From contig JAUCBJ010002659.1 in the NCBI GenBank assembly GCA_032718475.1, positions 62,001 through 126,000 of the forward strand: 64,000 bases of DNA, read 5' to 3'. This DNA is from Nemertoderma westbladi (lineage: Eukaryota > Animalia > Xenacoelomorpha). Each line of letters starts with the position of its first letter. Within the stretch, counting starts at the first letter, position 1. This document shows positions 31,811 to 64,000 of this stretch, piece after piece. The position numbers and the translations under genes were made by a program. Below the pieces are notes generated by a model. That model saw only the letters and a list, made by a program, of their open reading frames with translations. It was not told the DNA's origin and ran no database searches.

Positions 31811-31936
31811 ATAATTAATTTTTTTACAAAATTTAATTGTTTAGTTTTTCCATATCGATATTTACCTGCCAGCCAAATTACTGTGGTTTACATTGTAAAT
31901 TTTAGGTGGGTAAATACCGAAAACACTGCGCGGGTA

Positions 31937-33159: not shown

Positions 33160-33183
33160 CGCGGGTAAATACCGAATAGACTG

Positions 33184-34204: not shown

Positions 34205-35366
34205 AAAAGACTGCGCGGGTAGATACCGAAAACACTGCGTGGGCAAAAAACGAAAGAGGCGGGTAAATACCGAAAAAACTGTGCGGGTAAATACCGAAAA
34301 CACTGCGCGGGTAAATTCCAAAAACACTGCGCGGGTAATTACCGAAAAGAGTTCGTGGGTAAGTACCGAAAACACTGCGCGGGTAAAAAACGAAAGAGGC
34401 GGGTAAATACCAAAAACACTGCGTGGGTAAATACCGAAAACACTGTGCGGTTAAATACCGAAAACACTGCGCGGGTAAATACCTGAAAACACTGCGCGGG
34501 TAAATAACGAAAAGAGTTCGTGGGTAAATACCGAAAACACTGCGTGGGTAAATACCAAAAACACTGCGCGGGTAAATACCGAAAACACTGCGCGGGTAAA
34601 TAATGAAAAGAGTTCGTGGGTAAATACCGAAAACACTGCGTGGGTAAATACCAAAAACACTGCACGGGTAAATACCGAAAACACTGCGAGGGTAAATACA
34701 GAAAAGAGTTCGTGGGTAAATACTGAAAAGAGTTTGCAGTTAAATACCGAAAAGAGTGCGCAGGTAAATACCGAAAACACTGCGCGGGTAAATACCGAAA
34801 ACACTGCGCGGGTAAATAACGAAAAAAGTTCGTGGGTAAATACCGAAAACACTGTGTGGGTAAATACCAAAAACACTGCGCGGGTAAATACCAAAAACAC
34901 TGCGAGGGTAAATACAGAAAAGAGTTCGTGGGTAAATACTGAAAAGAGTTTGCAGTTAAATACTGAAAAGAGTGCGCGGGTAAATACCGAAAACACTGCG
35001 CGGGTAAATACCGAAAACACTGCGCGGGTAAATACCGAAAACACTGCGCGGGTAAATACCGAAAACACTGCGCGGGTAAATACCGAAAACACTGCGCGGG
35101 TAAATACCGAAAACACTGCGCGGGTAAATACCGAAAACACTGCGTGGGTAAATACCGAAAACACTGCGCGGGTAAATACCGAAAACACTGCACGGGTAAA
35201 ACGAAAAGAGTTCGTGGGTAAATACCGAAAACACTGCGTGGGTAAATACCAAAAACACTGCGTGGGTAAATACCGAAAACACTGCGAGGGTAAATACAGA
35301 AAAGAGTTCATGGGTAAATACTGAAAAGAGTTTGCAGTTAAATACTGAAAAGAGTGCGCGGGTAAA
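34205..35366. repeat. 24-bp satellite (GGGTAAATACCGAAAA + CACTGCGC/GAGTTCGT), left block
   Basis: Visible tandem array; isolated units also at 31908-31936 and 33160-33183. Confidence 0.95.
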
Positions 35367-38300: not shown

Positions 38301-40331
38301 TCGAACACGCGATACACAGTTTAAATGATTCCTTTGCCTCTGAGGACTGCGACGGCATATTACAGATCGACGCTACCAACGCATTTAATGTGTTAAACCG
38401 CAGCGCAGCATTGCATAACATCAGTTTAGTCTGTCCGGCGCTGCACACGATAGTAACTAATTGTTACAGCGAATCAGCGTGGCTATTCGTCGGCAGGGAA
38501 ACCCTCTACTCGGAGGAGGGTTCCACCCAAGGAGACCCGGTGGCGATGCTGATGTTTGGCTGCGGTATAACGCCGCTCCTAGACGAACTGGACCGCGGGT
38601 GCAACGTGGAACAGAAGTGGTTTGCGGATGATGGGAACGCGGGGGGCCGACTGGGAGAACTCAGGAAGTTCTTTGATATTGCGTGTTCAAGGGGACCATT
38701 ATACGGGTAATACCCGTATAATGGTGTCCTGACTGTAAAGCCGGATAAGTTAGTGGAGGTGGAGGCGTTGTTTGCGAACACCATCGTCGCAATTGATACG
38801 ACGGGCAACAAGCTACTCGGCGGCGTTATCGGTACCGAGGAATTTTGTGCCAGCTACGTCGAGGAGAAAGTCGATGAGTTCACGGAGGAAGTCGATCGAC
38901 TCGCTGAGATTGCCGCGGTGGACCCCCACTGCGCATTCGCCGGTTTGGCGTTCGGGCTCTCCTGCAGGTGGAGGTTATTCCTAACCCGCGTCATCCCCAA
39001 CGCTATGGAGCACTTCGGGAAGCTGGAGGAGACGGTGCAGCGGTTCATCGCCAAACTGCTCGACAGGCCGTCGCTATCGGCGGTTGAACGCCAACTAGTC
39101 TGCCTCCCAACTCGGGATGGCGGATTGGGTATCCCGGTTCCCTCCGACTTGGAGACGCAGTACAACCACTCGCGCCGAGTCTGTGAACCATTCGCAGATG
39201 CGGAGTCGATGGCAGCGGTGTGGACTGAACAGAGACGGATCGTGACCGAGGTGAAGGCGGAGTCCGTAACATCGTCTCGTACTAAAAGGGAACAAGTATA
39301 CACCCAGTTACCCACAGACCAATGCAAACTGTGTGAACTCACAACAGAAAAAGGTGCGTCAGCTTGGTTAAACTCCAAGCCACTAACCCTACAAGTTACT
39401 CACCTGAGTAAAGAAGTATTCCGGGATGCGGTGTGTCTCTGCTATGGTTGGTGTCCGAAGAATCTACCATCTCGTTGTGCCTGTGGGGCGCGATTTTCTG
39501 CATAACCCACGTCCTGTCATGCCCAACTGGAGGTTTCCCCTCCATCAGGTACAATGAGATATGTGATTTCGTCACCAACTCGCTCACTGAGGTCGCCTAC
39601 AACGTTGCTGTTGAGCCAATGCTCCAGCCTTTATCCGGTGAAACTTTCACCATCGTACCACCTCGACGGACCAGCAGGCGAGGCTGGATGTGTCTATGAG
39701 CGACTTCTGGGGAAACCGATTCCAGCGTTTGTTCATCGACGTGTCTGTGTTTAACCCACTGGCGGCGACGAACGCGGCTATGTCCCTAGACGCAGCGCAC
39801 CTCCACCACGAGAATCGTAAGATTCTTAAGTACGAGGAGAGGATACGGGAGGTGGAACATTCTACTTTCGTCCCCCTCATATTCTCAGCCTTTGGCGGGA
39901 TGGCGCCGACCACGCGCCAGTTTGTTAAGCGCCTGGAACAGAAGCTCGCGGACAAACGCGAGGTCAGGTACTCGGAATGCGTCACATGGATCCGGCGCAA
40001 GTTAAACTTCGCGTTGCTTCGTTCCTCCTTGCTCTGCCTTCGAGGTTGTAGGTCAGCCTCTAAACGGCCGGTTCATTGTCCAGTGTCTGATGCCTCCATT
40101 CGGTTGGACAACGCTGACACTGAGCCGTAGTCTGTGGTCTGGTAGGACAGCGCAGTCGTACAGGCCTACAATAGCTGACCAGTACAACATAAACAAACAA
40201 CTGTTTTGAATTTCCCCCTTACATCCGTATCACTGTACCTCATTGTATAAATCAGATTTGGTGATAGGGTGTAATAGTGCAATTTGAAGTATATACTATA
40301 TAATATACACCATCTCCACTTAAAAAAAAAA
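35367..40331 (+). mobile_element. 5'-truncated CRE-like non-LTR retrotransposon (RT + restriction-like endonuclease), frameshifted, interrupted by a solo LTR
   Basis: IVHWRPNLFLVP...PALLLQKP (35367-35620) resumes after 37541. RT motifs GVRPIGIGE, QIDATNAFN, GSTQGDP, WFADD. CACG..H..SC zinc knuckle and RYNEICD / RLDV / FIDVSV / HENRK RLE motifs. Poly(A) at 40322-40331. Confidence 0.88.
35621..37536 (-). mobile_element. Solo LTR (1916 bp)
   Basis: TGTTA...TAACA termini; 5-bp TSD CTGGA (35616-35620 / 37537-37541); splits the CRE ORF between LLQKP and GRSST. Minus-strand TATA near 37035 with CCAAT boxes upstream. Confidence 0.88.
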
Positions 40332-45989: not shown

Positions 45990-46560
45990 TCAAGATACAC
46001 TACCTAAGGTAAAAATTATAGATTCTGTAATTTCCGAGGTCGTATATACTAAGTACTTGGGTGTTCTGATTGACAGTAAACTGAATTTTAAAGAACACAT
46101 ATCTATCATCAGGTATATTTTATAGGCTTCGTCACATTTTTCCACTTTATATTCTCCGTACCCTATTTTTCGCTCTTATTTATCCCTATTTACAATACGC
46201 CATTGTCGTGTGGGGAAGTACATATCTGTCGATTTTAAAACCACTTAGAATCAAAATTAAAAAGCACTTCGAGTAATCACCTTCAGCCATTGGCAATCAT
46301 CTTCACTCCCTCTCTATCAACAACTTAATATACTCCCTTTGGATCAATTATAAAATATCAAGTTTATAATATTATGTTTGATGTACATAACAACATCCCA
46401 ACTCCACTTGAGCCTCTATTTCAAAGAGCGTCTTCAATCCATTCATACAATACTCGCTTTTCGGCATCTGGCTTATTTCATCCTCCTCACATTAGGCTAT
46501 GTGTTGCAGAACAATCTCTTTCATTCCAAGGAGCCCGCCTGAGGAATGCTCTGGATGAAA
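45990..46560 (+). pseudogene. CR1/L2-group LINE 3' RT fragment
   Basis: KYLGVLIDSKLNFKEHI, FALIYPYLQYAIVVWG, KKALRVITF and HSYNTR motifs with stops and frameshifts. Confidence 0.8.
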
Positions 46561-49187
46561 GATGCGCTTGCTACCTTTGGTTCCAGTTATCTTAATGGGA
46601 ATGATGCTAAACCCTTTTAACTGGTTCTTCGTGAGGACAGTTATACGTAAACGTGAACGTAGAAGGTTTCATCTTCCGAATCTTTCTCCTCCGATGATCC
46701 TGACTGGTCGAAGTAGTTGGTATAAAAGGTTTGAACCTCTCTTTACAAACCTTTTTTTCCTCTGCTTTATAAACAGCGTTGCACTTGGCTACTTTATTGG
46801 GATGTTCGCGTTGGAAATGTTTGGTGGGAGTGTGGCTGATGGTGTGGAGCAACGTGTCATGGTTGCATGCACATAAAGGAGAAGTATCCTCATTTGGGCA
46901 GTCCTTATGGACATGTCCAGACTTGGTGCACCTCCAGCAAGAATCTAGCGGACGTATCCCCTCCTCTCCTCCACTCTGAGGTCTCTAAAAATGCTACATC
47001 CGTGCAACTTGTGTCCGCTATATTGTCTGCCGTTCCTTTCGCAGAACTGGTATCCGTCAAATTCTGCAGACAACTGATGTCGTGATTGTTTGGCTCCAAT
47101 GGGTGTCAAAACCTTTGAAGTATCCATCGGGGTCATATAGGTCACAGCCTTTGCATTGTCGGAAGCTGTTTAGACCGATTCGGCGCCACAATCGTGATTC
47201 CTTCTGCCGCTATGTGATGGTCCGTATAGTTAGACCATGTCTCTACCACCGCCTCTCAAGAGATCAGTTTGTAGATGTCTGTTAACCTCAATAATCCACC
47301 AGCCTCTTTGCGCTGATACTCCACCTTGTGCCATTCTTGACGCAGTCGATGATTGAGCCAGCCGATAATCCTAATCAGAACCATCGGCGCCTTGGTGTAT
47401 TCTAGTAGACAGATAGACTGCAACGTTCCTATAGCATTCTTTACCTCATCTGCTAATCGTAGAAGATCTATAGGTTTCGAAATGGGTCCACCTCAACAGA
47501 AGTCTTCTATGATGGATTTAGACATGGTGACATTACCGCTGTATATGGAAAATAGAAGGTCGTACGCTAGCTCGAAAGCATCCGGAACTCCTATGAAGGT
47601 TTCTGCTAACCTTTTTGGCTCATCCGAGAGTACCTGAAGTAGGTAGTTGAACTTCTCCGTAGAGGTGAAGGCACACACGGCTATTTGGGAGACAACGTAG
47701 TCTACTAACGTACGCCAATGCTTCGTGTTACCTGAAAACTTCGGCAGTTGTTGTGCCGGTAATCCATGTCTGGCTCTGGACTTGACGATCTCGTCTCCGT
47801 CTCTGTTTGTCGTCGCGCTCTCTGTCTGGAGATGGCATTCAGCCGATCCTGTCTGGGTGAAGTTCATCGATAGGGGTCATAACCGATGGGATCTTCTCCT
47901 CTAGGATTTGGAGTTTGTTGTAGTTCTGGTTCCCTATAAGGTGGTCACTATGGTTGAGATTGGGGTTGTTCTAAATCCGCGCTGGCTCGCAATCGATCCG
48001 AAGGCGGCGCTTCGAGCTACTCTTCGATTTGAGCCAACCGGTCCGCTACAGGTCACATCATCTTGGTAAGTTGTTTAGCGCTAATCACCTCTACTGGTTG
48101 CGACGTAGGTTTCTGTACAGGTGTTTCGTGTGGATGATTATCGATTTATGGGTTTTTCAATCTCTCCGGTTCTCGTTTGAATTTGCCTGCCACTCCAGTA
48201 CGGATTATCTCCCTTTCCGTGGACTCCGCGTCGCTAGATGAGTTGCTGTTGTCGGGATATGGTGGCTGGCGTGTTTGCATTCAGCATATTATTATAGTCG
48301 GCGACATTCATTTTGGTTCGGCATCCATGTTATTCGTCGCTCGGTAGGTTGCTGGCGTGCGATCTCCTGTTGTTGTCGAGTAATCACTGATGTTGTCCAA
48401 CTAACATTGCAGCCTGGCTCCATACGCTGATGAACGATTTATCCAGGTGAGGGTTTTGGTAGGCTCGTGAGCCTTCCATAGCGAGAACTCCTGTCTTCTC
48501 TCCCAGTACAACTTCCAGTTCGTTGATCGGTACGTTGCTACTATAGAGCAAGTCAGTAAGTGCTTCTAACTTCCCATCCAGGCAGTATAGTTCTTCTTCC
48601 TCTTCGGGTTGTAACAATGCGTCCCTCACCTAACAGTTGGTTAAGTTGTTCCCGTTGGTCGATCCTACAACCAACTTAAACAGAATGAGACTTTATCTAG
48701 CACTTACCAATTTATATATTATTTTTACATGGATAAAATTGTCACCGAGTAACTCCGCTACTTCATGTAAACTTCGGAGTTTATTTATGGAGGTATGTAC
48801 CCTACTTTCTACTCTTACCTATAGGGCATAAAACTCGTATCTGGACATTGGAGCCATTAATTCGCGTACGACGCGAAAACCTTATCCGATACATCGAGTA
48901 ATTTGAGCCATGCATCCTCCTATACTCCTAATAATGTTCTCCTGGCTTCCAGTCGAACCTACCATGTCTGGTTCCTGTGATCTAGTTTGCGGGATGGTAA
49001 GGAAGTGTTCGGTTCTACCGTTGCCTCGTGCTACGGCTTCCGGTATTTCTGTTGGCGGTACCAGCGATGCAATCAGTGTGACATCGGTAGAAACGCGAGT
49101 CCTCCTTCTGGGTTTGTCTACTGTCGATCTGTCTGCATCACACGATTCATAGTTGGTAGGGGGGTTTCTAGTTGAGTGCCGTCTCAT
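46561..49187 (-). pseudogene. BEL/Pao LTR-retrotransposon gag plus start of protease region, degenerate and truncated
   Basis: DUF1759-like LPKFSGNTKHW...EKFNYLLQVLSDEPK (47493-47867). BEL-type Cys/His knuckles CTKSGHVHKDC...LCACNHDTLLH (~46840-46930). IIPIKITGTKGSKRI pre-protease segment ends at 46561. Multiple frameshifts and stops. Confidence 0.8.
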
Positions 49188-49324
49188 GTCGGTATTATAT
49201 ACGTCAAGTACAGATCATAATAAATGTAAAATGTCAAAATGTCGAAATGTCAAACTTACCTTGGTATATATATATATATACCCGAACCGGTACAAAATAA
49301 AATCACAAAATAGTATATAATAAT

Positions 49325-49520
49325 TTAATAAGTAATTAAACAGGACTAAGGATGATCCAACTCTATAGCAAATGGAGCGGAAAAAATGAATTCACCACCA
49401 GCGGGGATTGAACCCGCGTCTCCCGATAAACATTCAGGTATGCTAACCACTACACCACGGAGGACTACTCCATTTGCTATAGAGTTGGATCATCCTTAGT
49501 CCTGTTTAATTACTTATTAA
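49325..49520. repeat. Perfect 53-bp inverted repeat (49325-49377 / 49468-49520) enclosing a tRNA-like gene
   Basis: TTAATAAGTAATTAAACAGGACTAAGGATGATCCAACTCTATAGCAAATGGAG and its exact reverse complement, 90 bp apart. Confidence 0.95.
49393..49464 (-). ncRNA. tRNA-like Pol III unit (72 nt; GTT in anticodon position; probably not a translating tRNA)
   Basis: TCCTCCGTGGTGTAGTGGTTAGCATACCTGAATGTTTATCGGGAGACGCGGGTTCAATCCCCGCTGGTGGTG. A box TGGTGTAGTGG, B box GGTTCAATCC. D, anticodon and T stems pair; acceptor stem has two mismatches. T6 terminator 6 nt downstream. Confidence 0.75.
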
Positions 49521-51654
49521 TTTATATAATCTATGGATGTTAAACACATATACAAGTATATAATAATATTATAAATTAGCCTACCGGCTAATTCTGTACC
49601 AATAAGTGGGATAGCGGTATACGCTATCAAAAAATAGATCAACAAGTACGAATAATAAGACAAACAACAGCAACGACTAGGGGAAATATAATACCAATAA
49701 ATGCATAATTTTAGACAGCGGAACCCACGAATGTTGAGTAATACTATGCTCTAAGTTTAAACGACACGAGTCGTAAAACTTACACTCCTTTGAACTTCCA
49801 GTTGTACAGATCCCCAGATACAAACCAGACGAGAACTGTTCCGTTTCCAGCGTCACGGACGAATCCTTTACCTCCCAAACTAGCTGAAAAACGGCCTGAT
49901 CCCCAAGGCGATCCAGAAATGAGTCATTGTGTCCTGAAAAATCGAAGGTGAGAGTTTTACGGCCTACTCTACAAAATAAATTCAAAGGTACCACCCATAC
50001 TAATTCGTCTTTAAACCCTAAGTACCTTCTCGAGTACCAAAAAAAATAACACCACACACACACACAGCCTTAAGACAAAATTTAGTTACAAATTAACGTA
50101 TAGCTAATCAAATACAAACTGTTATACAATTACGTAAATAAACATCGTTCACTGTAAAATCCAGTAACTGTTGTACAATATCTACTGTAAAATCCCAGCA
50201 TAACCATGCCTTAAAATAGATACTAAAGTACACAAACTACTACTGGCGAGATCGGTGCCTGATGTCTTCTACTGAACTTGGGCGAATCAATTGCCTGGGC
50301 TAACTCGACAATCAGGGTGACTGGTCCCTAACTGGTGAGGCAGAAGTACAGTCAACAAAAAGGACCAAACTCGTGAGAAAAGATTCCCCATGTAGCAAAT
50401 CCTAACTACCGTTAATAGCCCTAAACTATGGTAGACTTGCCACGGTGTGATTTATATGGGTATAACAAACCAGTGGGTTGACAACGCTAGTGTAAAACAA
50501 TACTGCCAATCCAGAAAGCAGTCAAAAGGGTGGTATAAATATCAGTAGAATAACAATCTTAAGACGCGTGTGTGTGTGTATGTGTAAATTTCAGTTAATG
50601 TGATCTCTACTAGGTTTTGGTGACTTTTAACAAAATACATCAGGCATAAGCTACTGAAATAAGCTAGTCGCTCTCTGTAGGTGTAATAATACTTACAAAC
50701 TGACGTCAAAGAAAAAAAGCTGTCTCCTCCTATGTTCACAACTCGATCGGGCAAGTACAGTGTCAGTAACTACACCCGTAATCGGCACTTTATACCAGAC
50801 TCTGATTGTGAAAATAGAGAATAGGGTGTTAATTGCTACCGTACCGCTATGTATCTGATCTGGTATGAAATTTTAATCTATAACTTTGTTGCCGTGGTGG
50901 TATGCAGCAAATATCTAGCAGTACGTAGCAAGGGCCGGCAATATGTTAGTAAACGTCCTTAGCCTAAATGGTGTGCCAGTAACAGAAAGCTACCCTTTAC
51001 CTGAGCAAATACGTCAAACCCAGACAGATCAGTTGAAAGCAAAGCCTACAGCGCTAACTGGTACTGAATCGCTAGTACGATAAAGTCACCAAATTATAGT
51101 GTGCTATTTGCACCTAGTGTACCTGTGCGTACGAACAAACAGCACCAGCTCGCACCTGTGAACGATGCAGGTCAACCATGGGGTTTCTGTCTAGATCCGA
51201 GATATTTTACTCCTACATTTTACAGCGTCCCAGGACGTCGTCACACTTTACCCTGATCTAAGGTCTTAGGGTGGATAAAGGCGTCAAACAAAGTCTTACC
51301 TCTGGCATGGGCACTCTCAGGCTCTCGAATCATGGTCTAAGTGCGCGCGTGCGAATAGTTCGCTTATGCGAACTATTATCCCTTATGCGTTGCGGGCATT
51401 CCTCCCCCTTGCACTGCTGTAGCCTAAAGGTTTAGACAGCCATCCCTCTAATGTCGGCTGTTTTCAAGATATGCTAACATATTTTGATTTTTCAATATAT
51501 TTTAACGTAAGCAAATGATTTAACAAATTTATACTACTATTAGTATTACAAGTGAGATAAGTTTTACAAACAGTTAGATTAGACTAAAACTAAACAAGTG
51601 AAGATTAGATAGTTTACAACTAAGAAGAAGGGGTAGATAACTGAAGGGCAAAGG

Positions 51655-51830
51655 GTACCTTTTATAGTAAAGCTGGGGTGTGGAATCGCACTAGAACCTT
51701 CTACAACATTCTATGAGCTCACATTGGTCCAATAACTTATTTAGCACATCCTATCGGTCCAGCTAATCAGTTCTACTAAGTGTACGCACAATATTGGTTC
51801 AACTAATGCTGTACAGATGGGCGGTATATA
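51655..51830 (-). promoter_or_regulatory. LTR U3 Pol II promoter (TATA, CCAAT and GC boxes)
   Basis: Minus-strand TATAAAAG near 51659-51666; ATTGG/CCAAT at ~51723-51733 and ~51794; GGGCGG at ~51818. Confidence 0.55.
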
Positions 51831-51865
51831 CGAAATTGAAATAAATCATTACAAAAAATACAAAT

Positions 51866-51939
51866 GTTACCAATAGGGATTTGAACTCGCGACCTAATAT
51901 ATGCACGACTTACGCGTTAACCTACTAGGCTATTGGACC
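51866..51939 (-). ncRNA. Second, more degenerate tRNA-like Pol III unit inside LTR U3
   Basis: GGTCCAATAGCCTAGTAGGTTAACGCG...AGGTCGCGAGTTCAAATCCCTATTGG. A box TAGCCTAGTAGG, B box AGTTCAAATCC, T6 at 51853-51858. Stems imperfect. Confidence 0.55.
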
Positions 51940-52203
51940 AGTCGATGTAAGTATGTCAAAATATGTTTGATATAGCAAATATATAGTTTTTTTAAATAAA
52001 TCGTAACAGCAAGGCAAATATATCGAAAATTTTGAATTTTTTACGTAAAATCAGTGTACAAATAGCTATCTAAAGGAAATAATTCCACATACACCCACCA
52101 CCACAAATTTGGTTGGAGTGTACAGTACGCATACTGCACTAGAGCCTTTTTTGCATTTATTAGTCTAATATAGATTTGTTAATCCAAGTGCAGCACTCAT
52201 AAA

Positions 52204-54471
52204 ATGATACTTTTCATTATATTAAATGTGAACTTATATATTTTGGTGAGCAGTTTAGATCCATTGTATCTTTGTGATAAATCGAAACCAACGGGTGACT
52301 TCTACACTATAGCTGACGCACCGGAATGCGAAAAGGACACAAATGTCAGCGACTTCCAAGACCATAAAATCAGTGTCTATTACCCTTATGTTCCAAGGCC
52401 GCTGTTTAAAATTGAAGGCTATGTTTGCATTCTAACTCAAAATAGTAAAGTTACAAATTGTAATGCTGATGGGCTTTGGGAACAGATGAAAGGGTGGCAC
52501 GACAAAGATATCGTTCAGAAGTCATGTACAACCGCTAATACTGCTAGAAACAAGTTACAAATTGGTATGGATGAATGCGTGGAGTGGATGGAAGCTAAAG
52601 ACTGTAAAGCATCAATGAAAAGGTATCCGGAAATAGATCCAGAAAATAGTGAAACCAGAATGAAGGCTACTGTTCCACAGGGACCCTTCAACACGCAACT
52701 AACTAAAAAAGATGGTAGTTCTACCTGGTCTACTCATAACGGGATGGCTACAGGCATAGAGGAAGCCATGGTGGTGCATATAGGAGAATGTGAGATGCAA
52801 TGGATTTCTATAACTCTTACCCCAGACCCTGAAGAAATCGGGCAAATAAATATGATATGCCAAACCATGGATGATAGTTACGATTGCACAAATTGCAAGC
52901 TTGAAGATAATAAGTGCGAACTTACTGCATATTATGCACTTGTGTGGGATGCATTGTCAGTCCAATTAAAGGTGGGGGATATTAATAAACTTTACCAACG
53001 TGTTGTCAATGTCGAGAAAGATACAAGGGCTGCCATTGTTTTTGACAAAGATAGGTTTCCAGTCAAAATTACCATACCGGATATGTCTATGGCATTTAAC
53101 CCTAAAAAAGCAACGTTTCGAGAGATAACTTCAACAAATGACAAAGACGGAAGACATTGCGAAGGTTACGAAAAAGAAACAGATGTTGGGGTAATTGAAG
53201 ATGAAGAAATATGTTATGTTGATTTGGAATCTAAGAGAGTCTACGTATTTGAAGTAAAAAAAGAAGAATTACAAACGGAAAAAGTAGCTAAAATGAAGGA
53301 GGGAATCAATGCACAACGAACCGGTCAGACTGAACGAAAAAGAAGAAGAAGACAATCAGTTGAAGATTACAATAATCGATTGATCTACCTAGCTGACAGA
53401 TTGACGGCCGTATTGAGACAAACCAAACTAGATTTGGTATATCAAACGTGTTTGCGTCGTCAAGATGAGTACGCCATGTGGAATATGTTGGCAGAAATCA
53501 ATCCGGAAGTTGTCATGAAAGCCTTCCATATCGCTGGTTCGGGTCGTTATGTCGGCAATTTTATCGCATCGCATCTTTGCCAAAAAATAACAGATTACAC
53601 CGTGGTAGACAGTTTAATGATGGAGGAATCAGATAAAACGATCGATAAGCAAAGTGATGATACAGTCAATAATGCCACCAACTCTACAGGAAACACTAAC
53701 AATTCTGATGAAAATTGGAATAGAGCATATTGGAAAGAAATTGGCTATGAGGGTGCAGACAGGCCGAAATGCGCAAACAGACCTATAATATTGTGGAATA
53801 ATACAAAATACCAATTAGGAATAGACGGCCATCCTACCTATGATCTAATTGAACTCACCAACTGCCAGGAAAAGAATGTTAAATTCCACTTTAAGATAGG
53901 GGGCACGATTTTTACCTACATCAACTACACGAAATACCATATATCTCAATCATTTCCGAAGATTCAACCAAACGAGCCATTCAAATTTACGCATTCATCG
54001 CCGGTGAAGTTTAAAAGCATCCCGGATGTTTACAACCACCGTTCTGGACAAAGTGACCTACAGGCTTTGCGGAATAGTAGAGCAAAGATTTGGACAAAAA
54101 GACAACAAGTAAATAAATATTATTATCAGATTCGAAAAAATAATTCTGAACAAAACAGAGAGCTGGATCCTTATGACATGAGTTTATCGGGAATGCTGAA
54201 AGGCGTCGTCAGTACTATTTTCGATAGCTTTGCATACAAATTGTTGGAATATATTACAGGAGATTTCGCCCAGAAAGTGGTGCTAGTCTTTTTGTTGACG
54301 GGTTGCGTTTGTGGATGGATGGGGTTTGCGTTCATGATACTGGATCTTCTTGTTGAGTTTGGGTGTATCGGCAAGAAGGATCTAGGGAAGAAGAAGAAGA
54401 AACCGGTATCGAAGTTGTTCGAGAAAAAGAACAATAAAGTTAAACAATCATCTGTCTATGTAGCAGGATGA
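52204..54471 (+). CDS. Viral-type envelope fusion glycoprotein, herpesvirus gB-like (class III), 755 aa, intact and intronless
   Basis: Signal peptide MILFIILNVNLYILVSS; Cys-rich ectodomain; furin site RKRRRR. gB domain III/IV-like motifs TCLRRQDEYAMWNMLAEINPE..GRYVGNFIASHLC, CANRPII..YQLGIDG..TNC..FHFKIGGTIFTYINY. Several N-glycosylation sequons, C-terminal TM helix and basic tail. Confidence 0.85.
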   Translation: MILFIILNVNLYILVSSLDPLYLCDKSKPTGDFYTIADAPECEKDTNVSDFQDHKISVYYPYVPRPLFKIEGYVCILTQNSKVTNCNADGLWEQMKGWHDKDIVQKSCTTANTARNKLQIGMDECVEWMEAKDCKASMKRYPEIDPENSETRMKATVPQGPFNTQLTKKDGSSTWSTHNGMATGIEEAMVVHIGECEMQWISITLTPDPEEIGQINMICQTMDDSYDCTNCKLEDNKCELTAYYALVWDALSVQLKVGDINKLYQRVVNVEKDTRAAIVFDKDRFPVKITIPDMSMAFNPKKATFREITSTNDKDGRHCEGYEKETDVGVIEDEEICYVDLESKRVYVFEVKKEELQTEKVAKMKEGINAQRTGQTERKRRRRQSVEDYNNRLIYLADRLTAVLRQTKLDLVYQTCLRRQDEYAMWNMLAEINPEVVMKAFHIAGSGRYVGNFIASHLCQKITDYTVVDSLMMEESDKTIDKQSDDTVNNATNSTGNTNNSDENWNRAYWKEIGYEGADRPKCANRPIILWNNTKYQLGIDGHPTYDLIELTNCQEKNVKFHFKIGGTIFTYINYTKYHISQSFPKIQPNEPFKFTHSSPVKFKSIPDVYNHRSGQSDLQALRNSRAKIWTKRQQVNKYYYQIRKNNSEQNRELDPYDMSLSGMLKGVVSTIFDSFAYKLLEYITGDFAQKVVLVFLLTGCVCGWMGFAFMILDLLVEFGCIGKKDLGKKKKKPVSKLFEKKNNKVKQSSVYVAG

Positions 54472-54849
54472 GAACCGAAAAGTGAAGGCCAGATGGAATA
54501 GAACCTGCAATCTTTATACAACCTCTATGCAACATATGTAACATATGGAGATTCTGTATCGATTTTATAGTATAATCATTAGGTGTGGAACATTTTTATT
54601 GTAGACATAAATAAGTACCAAACCGAATCATTTTCGAATCATAGCGAATCATTTTCTAGACCAGTGGATACTATAATTTACCAACTGTAATTGAGAGAAT
54701 GTTATCAGTATGCCTTGGGCCTTCAGTATAATAAAAGTATTTTATGTTGTGTTATGAACCTTCTTAATTCATTACCATTAATTTATTACCATTAATTTAT
54801 TACCATTGCCATGTATGTATTTCCAGTTGTACAAAATACTTTAATATAA

Positions 54850-55360
54850 TAATAATTTATGTGCCTGGGTGAATGGAGGGGATGTTGCTCCCTGATATAT
54901 GTACCATCCACGGACCTGGTGTCTTCAGCAGTTAGAGCCAAGAGTGGGCTGTCATAGAGCAGAACCGGCTCATCTGCTACATAGAAAGCCGCACCTTTAA
55001 AGAGCACGAGATATCAAGTCTCTTCCAGATCCTGAATAGCTAGTAGTTTGTGGAAGTTACTGCAGAAGTTCTATAGAGGTCTTTAAATACCACGGTTTAA
55101 ATATATTGTATACAAATTTATAACAGATAAAAGGAAATTTCCTTTTGTATATCTGTATAATTTGAATAGCTTGTGCATTCCAGACCGGGCTTTCCCTTTG
55201 CGATTACGGAGATCTTCAATGTAGGAGAATTCATTCACATGACTTATACCAGTCCATCCAGCGATTGAATGTTATAACGGTCAATTTTCTTCTGTCTGAG
55301 TTCATATTTTCTGTCAGAATTTTGATCTGTCAAATTCACAAAGATCCACATAGAAAGTTG
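54850..55360 (-). pseudogene. Highly degenerate RTE-type LINE 3' remnant
   Basis: PVLLY..LALTAEDTRSVDGTY and EDLRNRKGKA motifs homologous to the RTE at 57700-57930. Confidence 0.6.
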
Positions 55361-55627
55361 CGAGCCCAGGGGCTATGAGCAATTGCCTCTGTTAAGCTAA
55401 CAGAGAAGATTTGTTCGCTGATAATTTTAGTCGGTGAGTTATTGGCAATGTTAGTTCTCTGTCTGATAAGTCACTGTTAAAGGGTGAGTTTTACGTTCAC
55501 TGTTAGTTCTCTGTGAACTAACTGAGAACATTTTCCTTAACAGAGGTAAAACCTCTGTTTAGGCTATTAGCAGAAGCACGTGTTAACACACCATGTAATA
55601 TTGCCAACTGTAATATTTAACATTAAC

Positions 55628-58600
55628 ATGTGGCGTGTTCAGTTTGACATAGAAATTGGTAACAGGCGTAAACCAGTATATAATAAGAAGTACAACCCGT
55701 TATCCCAATTACGACAATATGATTTTTTTGAAAGGTTCAGGTTTTATCCTGTTCATTTTGAAGAAATTCTTTCAGTTATTCGTGGTGACATCATGTTAGA
55801 TCCAAAGAAGGGTGTTTCCTGAAATACAGTTGGCTATACTACTACCAGGTACTACGCTGATGGAGGGTATGCCAGAGCTGTTGGAGATTTACATTATCTC
55901 TGGAAATGGATTGTTTTCGGCTGGAACCCAGTTCAAGAAGCGAACTGGAAAGCTATGGACTCATAGTGGACCCAGTGGTCACAAGTCCCAGATAGACCAT
56001 ATCCTGTTTCGTAGGAAATACAGGAGCTCTATACAAGACTGTAATGCATTTACACTACGACCCTTCTCCAGTGATCACTGCCTTATTGTGGTTCAAGGTA
56101 AGACTTAGTCTGCGTGCTAGCAGAACAACGAAATCTGCCTTGCCGCGGCATGACTGGTCCTCTCTGTTGCAACAGCCAAGTGTGAGATCCAGCTTCACAC
56201 TACAGCTGAGCAAGAGGTATGAGGTTCTTGCCTCTGAGGCGGCAGATCACTGTGAGGGCTATACTGCCTTCACAGAGGCAGTTAAGTTAGCAGCTGCAGA
56301 AACAGTTCCTGTATACCCTCGAAACAGGAAACGGGCCCCCTGGACTGACAACAAAATTCAGAAGTGCCGAAATGACCTCTACAAGGCGCAGAAAGAGTCC
56401 CGACTCAAACAGACTACAGCGGCCAAGAATGCAGTAAAGGCTGCATCTAGGTTACTGAACAGGCAGTACTTTGTTAATTTACCGGAGCTAATAAACCAAC
56501 AGGTTGATGCCATCAATCATGCTGACGACATCACAGGCATGGAGATCGATCAACTTGCTTGCTTGTCGAAAAAGCCAACCAACCACCAAGGTTAAGGCTG
56601 AATCACCAGCCGATCGCCTCAATGGTTGGAAGGCCCACTTTGAAAAGCTCCTCAATAATGACAGGGTATTGCCTGATAACTTTATAGAAGTAAAAGTGTC
56701 TGAGTCTGTACTCCCAGATATTCCCATTGGTGATATCTCCTTTGCAGAAGTGAAGGCTGCTGCAAAGAGCATTAAGACCAATCGTGCCAGTGGAGTAGAT
56801 GGTGTTCCCCCTGAGGTCTTTAAAATACCTGAGTGTTAAAGCTCATCTATCCCATCATAGTAGACATGTACCGAACAACAAGAAATGAAAACAAATAAGT
56901 TGGTGCCAGTTCCCAAGAAGGGCAACCTAACACTCTTTGGTTCTTATCGGGGAATCTCATTGATCTCGATTGCTGCAAAGCTATACAATAGAATTCTATT
57001 AAATCGCATCAGGGATCCCATTGAGAGACTGCTCCGTGGAAATCAGAATGGGTTCCGTAAAGGTCGTGGGACCATGGAGCCCATTTTGGCACTTAGAAGG
57101 ATAATTGAAGAGTTATCAAAAAAGAAAGACAGGCATCTGGCTGTTATCTTTGTTGACTTCTTCAAGGCCTTTAATTTAGTCTCTCGTTCACGTATGTTCA
57201 GCATACTTTCATTATATGGGATTCCTGATGAAATTATTGCAGCAATCAGATCAGTATGCGATGGTTCGACAACATTTGTGTCTACTGTTGACGGTGACAC
57301 ATAACCATTTGAAGTGTTATGGGGCGTCCTCCAGGGAGACACACTTGCACCATTCTTGTTCGTAATTGTTGTTGACTATGTTCTACGCATGTTCTTAGAT
57401 CATCATAATGATGATGGGGTGATGATAACTCCACCTACTGGCTCCAGAAGTCGAGGAATTCCTGCCAAGTACCTAACTGATCTAGACTTTGCTGTTGACT
57501 TAGGAGTACTCTCAGAATCACTAGAGGGAGCCCAATGGCTCCTCAGCTCATTAGAACATGCTGCTTCCAGTGTTGGTCTTTTTATTAACTCCAGAAAGAC
57601 CAAAATTCTGACAGTTAACTTTGAAAGTCCTCAGCAAGTCTCTGATCGGATGAGCATAAGCTCAAAAGATGGTATGCTTGAGCATGTGGATGACTTCTGT
57701 TACCTGGGATCATGGATCCGGAAGTCAGGTGAGGACCTTCGAATACGTAAGGGAAAGGCATGGGCAGCCTTGAATAGGCTCTCCAGGATTTGGAAGTCAC
57801 CGAGAATTAATCGGAAACTTAAGGTCCGATTATTTAGAGCAGCAGTAGTTCCAGTACTCCTCTATGGGAGTCCATGCTGGGCTCTAACTGCTGAGGACAC
57901 CAAATCTCTGGATGGCACATTCACAAGAATGCTACGCCGGGTTCATTGTGTCAAGTACAATGCACACATCTCCAACGGGACACTATATAACATTGGAGGT
58001 GTCTCATTGGTTCCCCCAAGCTTGACACTAGAACAAAATCGCCTCCGCTTTGCAGGACATTGCTTTCGCCGTGAGGACCAGCCAGTGCATAATCTTGTAC
58101 TTTGGCAGCCTCATGGAGTGAATAAGCATGGTGGACAGCCCATGACTTTCTTGAGACGCATCTTAAAGGACACTGGCCTTGAAGATGCGGATAATCTAGC
58201 AAATGTCATGGGTGATAGGGAGTTGTGGCGGAGCAATTTTGTCGATAAGCCGGCACAGCATTCTTAAAAATGCAGCTGCAATGCAGCATGCCGATCCTAG
58301 TAGTAGTACAGCGGCCAAATGCATACATAGGGTGTCCAATGCGTTATACAAACACAAGGATGGGTTCATTACATGGCCTGATACATCCCGCCAAGCCGAG
58401 ATTCAGAAGGAATTTTACGAGTACTCAACGAACCACAGCCAGTATAAAGGAATGCCTGGTACTGTCGGATTGGTTTATGGGACGCACATCAACATTTCAA
58501 CTCCTGTAGATAATGAAAGTGCTTATGTAAATGGACGTAAGAATCGACATACTATAAATACGCAAATTGTATGTGATGCCAAAATGCGTATTTTAGACAT

Positions 58601-59079
58601 TTGTTGTTTCCCAGGCGCTTCGCATGATTCCTTCCTATTACGACAGAGTGGTGTACCTGCGAGATTTCAAGATAACGCTACAGGTTGGTTGTTGGCAGAT
58701 TTGGGGGGGGGGGGGGGTATGGGTTGAAAAAATGGTTGATGACGCCTATTGAGAAGCCACTTACTAGTTCTCAATTGCGGTACAACAGGGCGCATAAGAG
58801 GACGCGGTCGATAGTAGAAAGGGTCAATGGAGTTGTTAAATCTCGATTTCGTTGTCTATCCTTGGAGCGCAAAATACTTGCTTGCGCATGTAAATACATG
58901 CTTGTGCATGTCTACACAATTATGCTATCAGGTGTAATGTACCACTTGTTCCAGTTGATGCACGATATGATGAAGAAGAAATTGCTGATCGTCAATATGA
59001 TGTTCGGGCTACTGTGGAGTACGACATTATTGGTAAAGTTGCACGAGATCGAATTGTGGAGAGATTTTTTCAAGAGTGA
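55628..59079 (+). pseudogene. Harbinger (HARBI1-like DDE) transposase, frameshifted and split by an RTE LINE
   Basis: FFERFRF, PEIQL, RYYADGG..VGDLH | LINE | STAAKCIHRV, GLVYGTHI (catalytic D of DGTH replaced by Y), PGASHDS, LLAD, TRSIVERVNGVVKSRFRCL, RDRIVERFF*. Confidence 0.85.
55901..58305 (+). mobile_element. RTE-clade LINE, 5'-truncated (C-terminal APE plus RT), inserted in Harbinger transposase
   Basis: QIDHILF..SSDH (APE end); VPVPKKG, YRGISL, QNGFR, FVDFFKAF, GVLQGDTLAP, DLDFAVD, YLGS; short (TAG)n tail; several frameshifts. Confidence 0.9.
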
Positions 59080-62000
59080 ACAGGCAATAAACACTAAACA
59101 GAAACTACAGTACAGTAAGTTCATTAAACTTCGCGAACGGTGATGTAAAAGTCAAGGATTATCAATAATTAATTGATGAAAATTTAGATACGTAAAATGA
59201 AATAATAAATAAATATAAGAATGATTTAAAAAAAATTAAAAAATGTATTTTTAAAATAAATGTAAAAAGTATTTTTTTGCAGTTGTACTGTAGTAGGCCT
59301 GCATTTCTTTGAAAACTCCGCACCAAATAAATTAACACGAACGCAAATTTGTTAAAGTAAAATAATTGAGTCTGCAAGACTTATTTTTTTCACACATTAA
59401 ACTGTTATGTGCAAAATTTGATGTTTGGAAAAGAAATATTATATTGAATTGAATTGAGCACTCAAGACTCAAAGTGTAACAAACTTTGAATTTTGGGTGA
59501 TAGGCATCACATTCTGGAAAATGGCCACAAACGATGTGAATAGAAATAGATCGTACTGTAGACGTTAAAGTTATTCTGCCAAGTTTCAGCTCCGCATATA
59601 ACCGGCAAGTCTTAGGACGTTCTAACGTCGTTCTAACGCAAAGAGTCTAAACTTTAAAGAGCCTCTAACTCCATTAATAGCAGCTACAATTTTTGCTACC
59701 GCAACTACCGCTACCGCAAAAAGTAACTACCGTACTATCCCTGCACTACACTAAGGTTCCATCTTGGTGTAGTCAGGTTGCATTGAATTCACATCTCTCC
59801 AGAGTTCGATCCTTGCATGGGGGCCCAGGCAATTTTCATTTCGGCAAGAATTATTTAAAGGGACTAACCAGGGTGCATCTCTTCCCACTAGCATACCGAG
59901 GAATCGGTAAAGGGCGTGGCCATATCTATGCCGGACTTTGGCACTACCACCTCCCACCTCTTCCACCCCCACCCCCCCCCCCCTCCCCCCCAACCAAAAG
60001 ACCCTACCAATCGGATAAAAGCGAAGAGCAACAATTGAAAAATATATTTTCATATTGATCGAAGTAGTAGGTAAAATTAAAAGGCAGTGCATTTCGAATT
60101 TTCTTTCTCATCCATTTTCAATGTTTTACAGAGATTTTCCTACGGTTTCTACGGAGACCTAATTGTAAACAAAAAATACATTTTGTACTGTGATGGGATC
60201 GTAGATCCCGACCGGGTTATATTTTGTATGCGTCGCCTGACTGCTGGTCTGCTGGTTCTTTAGGCTGAGAGCCGTTCGGGAAAATAACAGAGTTTTGTGT
60301 TCCTCAATGTTAATGTTCCAAATGATAATAGCACAGAATTAGTAATGTGACTGATATCGCAATACAGAATGAATGACTGCAGTAAATCGGTAATAGATAT
60401 TAGTTGGCGACGGTCGAAAACTATGACTGGTCTGCAACTCTGTGATTAATGAACTGACCGGTAAATCAGTAATACAGAATAATATATGATTAACACACAC
60501 GGATATTGGTTTCACCTCTTACTCTACTTGGCCTTCTGTACCCAGTGGATGCTCTCCTATCTCTTTTCACGTGCTCCCCTGCCTGCTATTGGCTTACATA
60601 CTAATTGTCACTTTGGCACTCCCTGTGAGTGTTTCCCCCCACCGCTAGCCTTTACAAGCTATGTTCTCCCTCCGAGGTGGTTTGACCTCTCACCTCTCTC
60701 TGTGGCTTTAGGGCTTGTATCGCCCCCCCCCCCCCCCCCCAAAGTTGGTTATGAGGCGAGATTATTATTGGTAATCTCGTATCCCCAACTATATTGGTAA
60801 AATGCCACTGGTCCCATTTTCGGGTGGATAGTGCAATGGAATTGAATCCGCTTACATGTACATACGATTTGTGGGTCTTAAACACACCACCTTCAGGGGG
60901 ACGTGAATTCAAGGCAATGGATTAAACCGCTACGGCTTAATTAGATAACTTCTGATAGTTAAATTTTTGAGGAATTTTTTTTTACTATCTTTCAAGGGGG
61001 ACGCTATAGCCACACGGTCTCCCCCTCGGTACGCTAGTGTACTCTTCCTTGCATCCTTACTTGAGTGGTAGCTACATGAGTACTGGAGTTTCCTCTTGTA
61101 ATTCTCTGGGACCGCACTGGAAATAAGACTTTGTGCGTAATCACTGGCCTACCGGCCGAAGATAACTTTACTTTTACTTTACCTTCACTGTAACCTACTC
61201 CTTTTCATTAATATATTAAATTTAATTATTGAATCGATGCTATCAATATTTTAATTAGGAGGCCCCTATGTGAATTAGAATGGATTTAACAAAATTTTCG
61301 TTAAAAAATAACATTTTTCTGATATTATATTTTTTAGAGCAATGGAGCCTTAAGTTCCACAGGCGTCTTTAAATAAATAATGAGTCTCTTAATACGTTAT
61401 TTTAGGGCTCTACAGTATTATGCAGCTCTTTAGGTTGCGTTGCTGAGTATATAGTTGACCATGCGAGTACACATGAGTAGATCAGTATAAACAATATAGA
61501 CAGTATAGAGTAAACATAATCGGGATCGTGGGTGGCACTACACATTATCAGTGGATGTTTTTATATTGAATCATTAACAAGAATAAAGGGATGCCGCATA
61601 TGGAAATTTTCATACATCAAAGGGACCGCATATGGAAAAGTTAGTTCTCTGTTATTGATCTGCTCATCCCCTAAACAGAAGGCTAACAGAGAACATTTAA
61701 ACAGCGAACTAAAATAGGTAAATTGCTCACCAAATTTGCACTCTCTGATAAAACCCTCTGTTAATGCTCTCTGTTTAAGTTAACAGAAGGCATTAACAGA
61801 GAACCAATTACTCATCGCCCCAGGTCACTGGCGAAAACATATTTAAGTTAGGGGGGGGGGGGGGGGGGGTGTTGCGATCTATTACAGGTGATCAAAGTAG
61901 TATTATAGCCAACTTAAATACGGATATTAGTCTACTATTACACCATGAGGATGGAAAAATACCATCAACACTTTGTTGCACTTGTTGCTTTTAAAACTTG

Positions 62001-62107
62001 TTGCTTATAGAAGGATAACTAAATTATCCAATAAAAAAAACGGAGAGGCTTGGGTGGGAGGTTTAAATTGTGTTGTAAGATAACATTCAAAAATGCTGAT
62101 AGGAAAT

Positions 62108-63490
62108 GGCAGTGATTTTTTATGTCAATTTATTTGACTTTTTTTTTACGAATTATGCATAATGACTTTTGTTGTCCATTTAATGACTTTTATTGTCACT
62201 TTTTATGTATGTATTTCTTCAAACTGTCAGACTGCTGATTTCTGGACTGTCAGACAGTTGATTTCACTATGCCTGTGCCAAAACATTCCATGATTCCATG
62301 ATTTATAGACTATGAGATAGATTTCCATATGCGCCTGTGGTAAAAAGACTCTATATTTAATAGTTTGTGGTTGTTGTCGATAATCGATTACCACATGACG
62401 TAGCAAAACACTCATTTTATAGCCAAAAACAATTACCAATTGATGGAAAGGAGCAGGTTAAGGCCGAGTTTTCTAACCAAAACAATAAACAGTCACTTTA
62501 CCAAATCAGGGAAAGGAGCAGGTTACAGAGACGGGATTTTCTAACCAAAACAATAAACGATCATTTAACTAATTGAGGGAAAGGAGCAGGTTACAGAGAC
62601 GGGATTTTCTAACCAAAACAATAAACGATAACATTACCAATTGAGAGAAAGGAGCAGGTTACAGAGGCGGGATTTTCTAACCAAAACAATAAACGATAAC
62701 ATTACCAATTGAGGGAAAGGAGCAGGTTACAGAGGCGGGATTTCCAAACCAAAACAATAAACGATCACTTAAACTAATTGAGGGAAAGGAGCAGGTTACA
62801 GAGGCGGGATTTTCTAACCAAAACAATAAACAGTCACTTTACCAAATCAGGGAAAGGAGCAGGTTACAGAGACGGGATTTTCTAACCAAAACAATAAACG
62901 ATCATTTAACTAATTGGGGGAAAGGAGCAGGTTACAGAGACGGGATTTTCTAACCAAAACAATAAACGATCATTTAACTAATTGAGGGAAAGGGGCAGGT
63001 TACAGAGGCGGGCCTTCTGTGCTGTTGGAAGTAGTGGAGCCGCTATCCGTAACACTACTCAGACAGTAGTCATGATCCATTATTGATTATAAAACTAATA
63101 CAGTAAGGCCTAAATTATGTGAAAGGTACAGTATATCCACATTTTCCACAATCCTGCAATCCAGTTTCGCCTATCAATTATTTAAAATTTATTAGCACAA
63201 CCGATAGGCCTACCATTACCGTATTTAAATGGTAGGCTACACAGTAGGCCTATAGCAGTACCAGTGCCGGTACCGGTACTAAAATACAGAAATACCTGCT
63301 TTATACCTACATCTGTACATACAATACAGCAAAATAGTGCTATATATATACTAACCGGTACTGATAGCCTGAGAGAACAGCAGTAGAGAAACCGGTAGCA
63401 TGGAACCTAACATTAGACTTTTGGATGACATAAAAAATCAAAAAAAATTGACAAAAAAAGGATAAAAATGGACAATAAAAATTATTGCGA
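62108..63490. mobile_element. MITE with internal ~59-bp tandem repeats, copy 2
   Basis: Collinear with 15307-16813; TSD TAGGAAAT (62100-62107 / 63491-63498). Confidence 0.85.
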
Positions 63491-63498
63491 TAGGAAAT

Positions 63499-64000
63499 TG
63501 TTATTTATAGTTTATAGGTGTCTTTGGGTCGGTTTTTTTATTCTTGCGATAATTTTATGGAGCCAACATGGTGATGCATAGGTTATTATCGGTAGAATCA
63601 TAGATTTGTACATATTTAATTTCGATAGAGCGGTAAGATTTGATGCACAGTTACGTTTTATTAGTTGGAAGGCCATGTTTCCTTTACTGCATTTTTCAGT
63701 TACGTGAGCGGTCCAGGTAATATTCGATGGGAAGGTGACTCCCAGATCTTTTTCTGAGGTGGTTCGTTCTATCGGATGGATATTAATAAATTTTACGTTG
63801 GACTGCCCTTGAAAGATAAGTTGTTTACATTTGCTGATGTTAAATTCAACACCGTTACTTTGACTCCAGACTGATAATTTATTTAAATCGTCTTGTATTT
63901 GTGGGGGATTGGTTGTCGGATATATGGAAACAAGTTTGCAATCGTCAGCGAGTAGATAAGGGTCTGTTTGTGTGCAAATGTTCGGTAGGTCATTCGATTC
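63499..64000 (-). pseudogene. CR1-clade LINE RT fragment (runs off window)
   Basis: NDLPNI..LLADDCKL, QDDLNKLSVWS, FNISKCK, EKDLGV, YKSMILPIITYASPCW. Confidence 0.85.

What the first reader, a model, noticed from the sequence alone, without database searches (positions are those of the whole stretch)
52204..54471. Intact herpesvirus-gB-like fusogen amid decayed elements: candidate domesticated or recently active envelope gene
Seen: 755 uninterrupted codons with signal peptide, polybasic furin site, TM anchor and the gB-like motif series (C..Q....W..L..INP, C..RP, QLG, F..GG....Y..Y). Every other TE-derived coding region in the window, including the adjacent gag, is frameshifted. Established: these motifs typify class III fusion proteins of the gB group. 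Inference: purifying selection on the env alone (syncytin-like or antiviral co-option), or a much younger insertion than the gag.
Basis: partly seen in the sequence, partly recalled or inferred. Interest (0 to 1): 0.8.

Follow-up and report, generated by a model that had tools for sequence, protein, structure and literature searches.

The report
Herpes-gB-like envelope gene, retroelement relic
This animal genome holds an unbroken gene for a membrane protein related to the herpesvirus fusion protein gB, facing away from a wrecked retrotransposon capsid gene; it is likely the envelope gene of a virus-like jumping element, a known kind, and take-over by the host remains possible but untested.

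Summary
The ORF is real: 755 codons, a hydrophobic N-terminus, a polybasic cleavage site and one membrane anchor. Homology to gB is shown: a profile of 66 herpesvirus gB proteins aligns colinearly over residues 393-579 (hhalign 94%, E 1e-7), with six core cysteines in place. No close relative was found elsewhere. (1) The BEL/Pao gag lies on the opposite strand, 3.6 kb away, with no pol nearby. (2) Public runs hold a second copy of the gene, 85-89% identical where alignable, with the frame kept and purifying selection on the core (dN/dS 0.23, few sites). (3) One sample seems to carry this copy broken off at codon 456, and another a one-base-short second copy. Best reading (0.5): env of a BEL/Pao-type element, conserved while the element was active, younger than the gag and now starting to decay. 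Host domestication stays open (0.3); expression and orthology are untested. gB-type env in invertebrate retroelements is published, and this scan met it before on other DNA. The possible novelty is an env encoded antisense to gag.

The parts
52204..54471 (+). Intact ORF, 755 aa, gB-like class III envelope glycoprotein (env-A)
52204..52266 (+). Hydrophobic N-terminus, likely signal peptide (aa 1-21)
   Evidence: hydropathy only
53335..53352 (+). Polybasic furin-type site, aa 378-383
   Evidence: lines up with the gB cleavage loop
53380..53940 (+). Region homologous to gB domains III-IV (aa 393-579)
   Evidence: hhalign probability 94%, E 1.3e-7; Pfam PF00606 E 5.2e-5, below the curated cut-off
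54265..54375 (+). Predicted membrane anchor (about aa 688-724), followed by a lysine-rich tail
53569..53569 (+). Place where one sample's env-A contig leaves the window sequence (codon 456)
   Evidence: tables 7 and 8; one contig, depth 28
54730..54735 (+). AATAAA 260 nt after the stop, followed by G/T-rich sequence; candidate poly(A) signal
   Evidence: not tested against chance
54864..55010 (-). LINE reverse-transcriptase fragment that ends the env flank in this haplotype
   Evidence: (54899-54983 matches 57851-57920 and 25153-25240), translation; ends approximate; sample S1 departs from the window at 54864
46607..48629 (-). Broken BEL/Pao-type gag: DUF1759 and zinc knuckles in three different frames, stops in frame; no protease or pol after it
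   Evidence: 5' limit approximate
48766..51398 (-). Candidate long LTR between env and gag (TG...CA ends, AATAAA 14 nt before the end); multi-copy, non-coding
   Evidence: boundaries inferred, no second copy in the window
51399..51410 (-). G-rich purine tract followed by TG; candidate polypurine tract
   Evidence: the only such tract in 10 kb; 8.4% of 1000 shuffles have one
48750..48765 (-). Primer-binding-site-like stretch in front of gag
   Evidence: likeness to an initiator-tRNA site is recalled, not tested
49310..49534 (.). High-copy insert: tRNA-like sequence (49393-49464, minus) between 68-nt inverted repeats

Best explanation
The ORF encodes a gB-related membrane glycoprotein that is likely the envelope gene of a BEL/Pao-type retroelement, likely kept intact by selection while the element was active and likely younger than the broken gag beside it. 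Shown: intact frame, gB homology of the C-terminal ectodomain, a second copy with the frame kept, opposite orientation to gag, no pol nearby. Inferred from known class III proteins: the protein would enter the secretory path, be cut at aa 378-383, form trimers, and fuse membranes by refolding around the central helix. It would then give Gag particles a way from cell to cell, for example from soma into the germ line. Inferred and weaker: env sat antisense in the 3' part of the element, 800 nt before a polypurine tract and an LTR that is shared with the gag-bearing copy downstream. This locus would now be a relic that is starting to break.
For: Homology: a 66-sequence gB profile scores 14.0 bits against at most 4.5 in 1000 shuffles (638 reported) and -3.1 for the reversed protein. 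hhalign gives 94% for aa 393-579 and a weak colinear N-terminal match at aa 18-80, E 0.12. 8 of 10 invariant gB cysteine columns hold a Cys in the query (six with motif support). Atlas top hits are Monjiviricetes and rhabdovirus glycoproteins at 0.90. Element context: BEL/Pao gag and a multi-copy LTR-like spacer lie next to it. Selection: second copy at 85-89% over 1137 of 2268 ORF bases; 3 of 3 unaligned intervals differ by multiples of three; dN/dS 0.23 at aa 409-466. Decay now: env-A contig broken off at 53569 in run X2, env-B one base short in run X5. Sample S1 leaves the window sequence at 54864, so the pol-less right flank is not shared by all samples. The same combination is known from Anakin and Tas.
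Against: Only two env copies were seen at 80% identity or more, while gag and spacer are many-copy. No pol was found in 30201-34400, 46300-52200, 54472-55853 or 59201-64000. No LTR pair was found. The purine tract is weak evidence (8% by chance), and depth gives no clean LTR step. If env and gag are one insertion, an intact env needs selection in place: zero stops occur in 5% of simulations at 3% drift and 0.05% at 9%, and the longest gag-region contigs are about 18% diverged. The two broken alleles rest on one contig each; the one-base loss may be an error in an A-rich stretch.
Confidence: 0.5

Rival explanations
1. Host-domesticated gene pair: an env captured from a BEL/Pao element or a virus, duplicated and kept by the host, most likely to block related envelopes at the receptor (as proposed for Iris and for mosquito solo glycoproteins) or as a cell-fusion protein.
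For: Low copy number and no pol. Frame intact in the window and in both S1 contig sets; their 2-nt gap falls before the start codon, as inferred from bin depths. Two copies with the frame kept, a conserved core and a fast-changing N-terminal half that does not align at 80%. Gag next to it is wrecked. A poly(A)-signal-like motif follows the stop.
Against: Hints of a truncated env-A allele and a frameshifted env-B allele. Run X5 holds env-B but no env-A contig (absence from contigs proves little). CpG at codon 3-1 positions is 0.84 of expected, against 0.32-0.35 in the two host ABCA ORFs, so it lacks their methylation signature; intergenic DNA is also undepleted, so this is weak. Selection between copies is equally expected from an active element.
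Confidence: 0.3
2. A recent endogenous piece of a free virus (chuvirus-, nyamivirus- or other class III-bearing virus) or of a Maverick-type DNA element, which landed next to the BEL/Pao remnant by chance.
For: Atlas and fold-search neighbours include Monjiviricetes and entomopoxvirus glycoproteins. Opposite orientation and low copy number fit an independent insertion. Nematode Mavericks carry a gB-like fusogen.
Against: No other viral or Maverick gene was found in the flanks scanned. Two copies about 20% apart at silent sites, both nearly intact, would need two separate recent integrations. No relative in viral contigs. There is no poly(A) tail after the ORF.
Confidence: 0.15
3. The ORF is an assembly chimera or a contaminant.
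For: No contig spans the whole stretch. The best-holding runs may be the source of the window.
Against: Contigs from two studies match the ORF with 0-12 differences at single-copy-like depth and run into the flanks at both ends.
Confidence: 0.03

Closest known systems
HSV/gB-type ENV of metazoan Ty3/gypsy 'errantiviruses' (Chary and Hayashi, PMC13524379; abstract, sections 3 and 6, part 1 of section 9, and passages read; supplements not read)
   Same: Signal peptide, ectodomain with conserved cysteine bridges, optional furin site, membrane anchor; very low sequence identity between members; widespread in invertebrates.
   Different: The gag here is BEL/Pao type (DUF1759), no pol or LTR pair is present, and env faces away from gag. 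The words 'antisense' and 'opposite' do not occur in that paper's main text.
Anakin (Pao element with chuvirus-like glycoprotein) and mosquito solo glycoproteins (bioRxiv 10.1101/2020.02.15.950899; passages read)
   Same: Class III glycoprotein tied to BEL/Pao elements; pol-less solo copies proposed as domesticated antiviral genes.
   Different: No Pfam Monjiviricetes_fusion match here; the detectable similarity is to herpes gB. Orientation to gag is reversed here.
Tas element of Ascaris (BEL/Pao with gB-like env; passage in PMC9094657)
   Same: BEL/Pao element with an env weakly similar to herpesvirus gB.
   Different: Tas sequence was not compared here; its gene layout was not checked.
Herpesvirus glycoprotein B (PF00606)
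   Same: Central helix, INP, C-x-x-RP, QLG and F-x-x-G motifs in order; six well-supported shared cysteines; cleavage loop at the same place.
   Different: 13-19% identity; score below the Pfam cut-off; no match to the PH1 and PH2 domain models; extra cysteines in the N-terminal half; an insert of about 40 aa between C459 and C523.
Iris of Drosophila (PMC1262188; abstract read)
   Same: Model for a domesticated invertebrate env, duplicated and fast-evolving.
   Different: Iris is baculovirus/gypsy-type, lacks the cleavage site, and has shown orthology and expression; none of that is shown here.
Antisense ORFs between pol and 3' LTR in plant Retand/Grande elements (PMC11963269; passages read)
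   Same: Would be the same position and orientation if the shared-LTR reading holds.
   Different: Those ORFs encode TRP28 and similar domains, not fusogens, in plant gypsy elements.

Membership tests
Class III fusion protein, gB group | Homology of the central helix and crown (domains III-IV) with ordered motifs | tested here: met
Class III fusion protein, gB group | Conserved disulfide cysteines | tested here: met
   8 of 10 invariant gB columns; C24, C42, C416, C459, C523, C554 have motif support; C134 and C319 may be forced by the aligner
Class III fusion protein, gB group | Type I membrane topology | tested here: met
   hydropathy
Class III fusion protein, gB group | PH-like domains I and II with fusion loops | tested here: inconclusive
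   No Pfam match; model pLDDT mostly under 60 there; single-sequence model unusable
Class III fusion protein, gB group | Class III fold by an independent structure prediction | tested here: inconclusive
   The model that matches gB (TM-scores 0.2-0.3) was built on a gB alignment and is circular
Class III fusion protein, gB group | Membrane-fusion activity and trimer formation | not testable with these tools
   needs bench work
Herpesvirus gB proper (PF00606 family) | Pfam curated score of 43 bits plus PH1 and PH2 domains | tested here: not met
   23.3 bits at best, no PH1 or PH2 match; true gB controls score 282-326 bits
env-bearing BEL/Pao element (Belpaoviridae) | BEL/Pao-type gag nearby | tested here: met
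   DUF1759 E 7.7e-6, zinc knuckle; opposite strand
env-bearing BEL/Pao element (Belpaoviridae) | pol and paired LTRs around gag and env at this locus | tested here: not met
   not every part of the window was scanned for broken pol
env-bearing BEL/Pao element (Belpaoviridae) | env linked to gag-pol in other copies of the family | not testable with these tools
   no genome held; contigs too short
Domesticated env (syncytin or Iris type) | Intact ORF under purifying selection | tested here: inconclusive
   dN/dS 0.23 in the core and 0.49 overall between paralogues; not a test of selection in place
Domesticated env (syncytin or Iris type) | Fixed in the species | tested here: inconclusive
   hints of broken alleles, one contig each
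Domesticated env (syncytin or Iris type) | Orthologous in sister species and expressed | not testable with these tools
   no related genome and no usable RNA run

The most novel reading that the evidence does not exclude
A BEL/Pao lineage that encodes its gB-type fusogen on the antisense strand of its 3' region, with two copies since kept by the animal host as a working class III fusogen or envelope-blocking gene pair, after gag decayed and pol was lost. Searches and word look-ups turned up no description of an antisense env in BEL/Pao elements.
Probability: 0.2. Interest if true: 0.75.

Novelty: new member of a known kind. Interest (0 to 1): 0.4.

Why it matters
gB-type envelope genes in invertebrate retroelements are known, but none that I read about has shown function, and this one is so divergent that 1.84 billion representative proteins hold no true relative. 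It extends the range of class III fusogens and offers a two-copy system in which selection, polymorphism and expression can be measured. If it is host-kept, it would be a class III counterpart to syncytins and Iris. If it is antisense within its element, it is a gene layout I did not find described for BEL/Pao.

Tried and rejected
No whole genome is held. Protein searches found no relative: word-index search of the whole ORF (0 of 3922 candidates) and of aa 385-625 (0 of 608); phmmer on 1.84 billion representatives gave one hit, P0002, a repetitive unrelated protein, rejected on its alignment; PDB sequences gave one hit at E 0.51. Viral and metagenome contigs gave none. A motif scan gave 140 loci, of which 50 had the motif in a stop-free frame; 3 were herpes gB and the rest matched only at the motif. 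One of them, L222 (65-aa frame, E 7e-5 within that small set), was not inspected. The gag piece found no relative among longer proteins (0 of 119). The single-sequence fold was unusable (pLDDT 31). The trimer job gave no answer. The second Atlas search (aa 384-680) gave only class II leads under 0.9, which does not back class III. I first read a purine run plus TG at 54872-54889 as the start of a 3' LTR and rejected it: it is a LINE fragment. I first read the shared high CpG of env, gag and spacer as a sign of one element and dropped it: intergenic DNA is the same. No RNA holder listed. Rfam found only the tRNA-like insert in 46000-56000. The bacterial promoter scan does not apply to an animal.

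Full report
Observation. The frame 52204-54471 on the + strand is open for 755 codons. In 300 shuffles of 46001-64000 the longest stop-free frame was 226 codons. Hydropathy gives an N-terminal hydrophobic stretch and one long hydrophobic stretch at about aa 688-724. A polybasic site lies at aa 378-383, and there are 21 cysteines and 7 sequons. Apart from tandem-repeat frames and two long host ABCA ORFs (3-2621 and 20231-24784), no frame in the window exceeds 320 codons. The window is animal-like: ABCA genes, LINEs, a Harbinger-type transposase and satellites.

What the protein is. Pfam gives only a weak Glycoprotein_B match (E 0.001 for the whole protein; E 5.2e-5 and 23.3 bits against a cut-off of 43 for the part after the cleavage site). 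To test this I fetched 103 loci with a gB motif pattern; 66 held a long ORF with the motif, and 4 of 4 checked were true gB. Their profile scores the ORF at 14.0 bits; the best of 1000 shuffles scored 4.5 (638 were reported) and the reversed protein -3.1. hhalign gives probability 94%, E 1.3e-7, for aa 393-579, and weak colinear matches at aa 18-80 (E 0.12) and 115-140 (E 0.3). In an alignment with 47 of the 66 gB proteins, 8 of 10 invariant cysteine columns hold a Cys in the query; six have motif support and two may be forced. The Atlas puts Monjiviricetes and rhabdovirus glycoproteins first at 0.90, with a recognition value below its own mark, so this is a lead only; its search on aa 384-680 gave class II leads under 0.9. 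A model built on the gB alignment has pLDDT 70-89 over most of the central helix and crown and mostly under 60 in the N-terminal half. It matches gB, nyamivirus, chuvirus-like and entomopoxvirus glycoproteins, but this is circular and TM-scores are 0.2-0.3. So homology to the gB group is shown for the C-terminal ectodomain, while domains I-II and the fusion loops are not resolved. It is not a herpesvirus gB proper. No true relative was found in any collection.

Surroundings. The gag is BEL/Pao type (DUF1759, E 7.7e-6; zinc knuckle) and lies on the minus strand at about 46607-48629, so gag and env face away from each other across 3.6 kb. DUF1759 aligns across an in-frame stop, and by my reading of the three frames the capsid part and the knuckles lie in different frames. 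No pol domain was found in 46300-52200, 54472-55853, 59201-64000 or 30201-34400, and no LTR-sized direct repeat in 46000-56000 or against the rest of the window. The sequence after 54864 is a LINE fragment. On the minus strand the spacer has a G-rich purine tract followed by TG at 51410-51397, the only one in 10 kb (8.4% of 1000 shuffles have one). It also has AATAAA at 48785, an end in CA at 48766 and a primer-site-like stretch before gag (the likeness to an initiator-tRNA site is recalled). Read together these would make a 2.6-kb LTR with a purine tract before it and a primer site after it, that is an LTR shared by two copies in tandem, with env antisense in the 3' part of the first. This is inference on weak signals; depth shows the spacer to be multi-copy but gives no clean step.

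Copies and alleles. Six runs were listed, four hold the stretch, from two studies; one may be the window's source. I laid four of the six. Summed depth is 13-96 over the env bins against 111-2072 over gag and 280-40000 over the spacer in X1-X3. Contigs of this copy (env-A) differ from the window by 0 to 12 letters. A 2-nt gap in sample S1 falls before the start codon, as inferred from the first bin's depth. A second copy (env-B) appears in X2, X3 and X5. It aligns in five pieces at 85-89% over 1137 of 2268 ORF bases; most of the N-terminal half does not align at 80%. The three unaligned intervals differ in length by +12, -12 and +3 bases, and the two core pieces by 0 in X2 and X3; the tail alignment is gappy and was not used. 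Of 154 difference rows 40 were shown, all in 53430-53736, where the contig has 48 differences in the piece 53400-53777. They give dN/dS 0.49 overall (binomial P 0.07), 0.23 for aa 409-466 (7 silent, 7 non-silent; P 0.014) and 0.8 for the loop aa 466-513, with no stop and no cysteine lost. I chose the core/loop split after seeing the data. Against a fixed, needed gene: in X2 the env-A contig (depth 28) leaves the window at 53569 (codon 456), no env-A contig covers 53570-53747, and the 3' part has depth 6.8. In X5 the env-B core piece is one base short (657 against 656). Each rests on one contig. Both S1 contig sets leave the window sequence at 54864, by 44 and 48 letters, so the right flank differs between samples.

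How it most likely works. From the gB group (established knowledge; PMC13524379 section 6), the protein would be a glycosylated type I membrane protein, cut at the polybasic site, trimeric, and fusing membranes by refolding. None of this was tested. The simplest history is an env-bearing BEL/Pao-type lineage with two diverged sub-lineages, selected while active. Simulated drift leaves the ORF stop-free in 5% of runs at 3% divergence, 1% at 5% and 0.05% at 9%, while the longest gag-region contigs lie 16-18% from the window (closer copies may be among the records not shown). So env-A is either clearly younger than the gag or has been selected in place. The broken alleles and the variable flank tip me to the first (0.5); low copy number, no pol and two kept frames keep the second alive (0.3). 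A chance viral or Maverick insertion gets 0.15.

Comparison with what is known. gB-type env is widespread in invertebrate Ty3/gypsy elements (PMC13524379: abstract, sections 3 and 6, part 1 of section 9, passages). It is also known in BEL/Pao elements: Anakin, with solo copies proposed as domesticated (bioRxiv 10.1101/2020.02.15.950899, passages), and Tas (PMC9094657, passage). Mavericks carry one too (bioRxiv 10.1101/2022.07.12.499685, passages). Iris is the proven invertebrate domestication (PMC1262188, abstract). Antisense ORFs before the 3' LTR are known in plant Retand elements, but not as fusogens (PMC11963269, passages). Searches (2 papers, listing only; 21 papers, 15 listed, one read in passages; 0 papers) gave no account of an antisense env in BEL/Pao. 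I did not read the supplements of PMC13524379, which may hold closer relatives. Earlier notes of this scan record gB-type env in other genomes and BEL/Pao pol in this genome; none covers this sequence.

Verdict. A real, very divergent gB-group envelope gene and a new member of a known kind. Domestication is neither shown nor excluded. Interest 0.4.

Noticed in passing
window 49310-49534: A tRNA-like sequence (Rfam 42 bits; ARAGORN tRNA-Asn) sits between 68-nt inverted repeats, 94% complementary, in a very high-depth bin: a possible tRNA-carrying MITE or SINE family.
   Followed up: partly
window 3-2621 and 20231-24784: Two ABCA transporter ORFs without introns over 873 and 1518 codons, strongly CpG-depleted.
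   Followed up: partly
window 55570-59143: A Harbinger-type DDE transposase (DDE_Tnp_4 at 58200-59143) whose apparent 5' part lies near 55571-55822, split by a very high-copy LINE of about 2.5 kb; the 5' part is read by eye.
   Followed up: partly
run X5 laid on window 46100-59200: X5 has the same species label but no gag or env-A contigs, far lower LINE depth rising about 130-fold toward the LINE 3' end, and a longest record of 11.6 kb; it may be another library type or another species. No conclusion on expression is drawn.
   Followed up: no
window 52333-53055: The N-terminal half of env does not align at 80% between the two copies, while the signal-peptide region, the core and the first 70 nt after the stop do: possible diversifying selection or recombination.
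   Followed up: partly
window 51666-51640 (minus): A TATA-box-like motif followed about 25 nt later by an initiator-like motif, pointing toward the candidate LTR; could mark another LTR-like piece (motif names recalled).
   Followed up: no
window 51354-51377: A 24-nt near-perfect palindrome just inside the start of the candidate LTR.
   Followed up: no
window 37482-40127: Broken non-LTR element with a reverse transcriptase match at 38081-38707.
   Followed up: no
L222:211-405: A 65-aa frame from a metagenome contig that matches aa 407-441 somewhat beyond the search motif; could be a fragment of a relative or chance.
   Followed up: no
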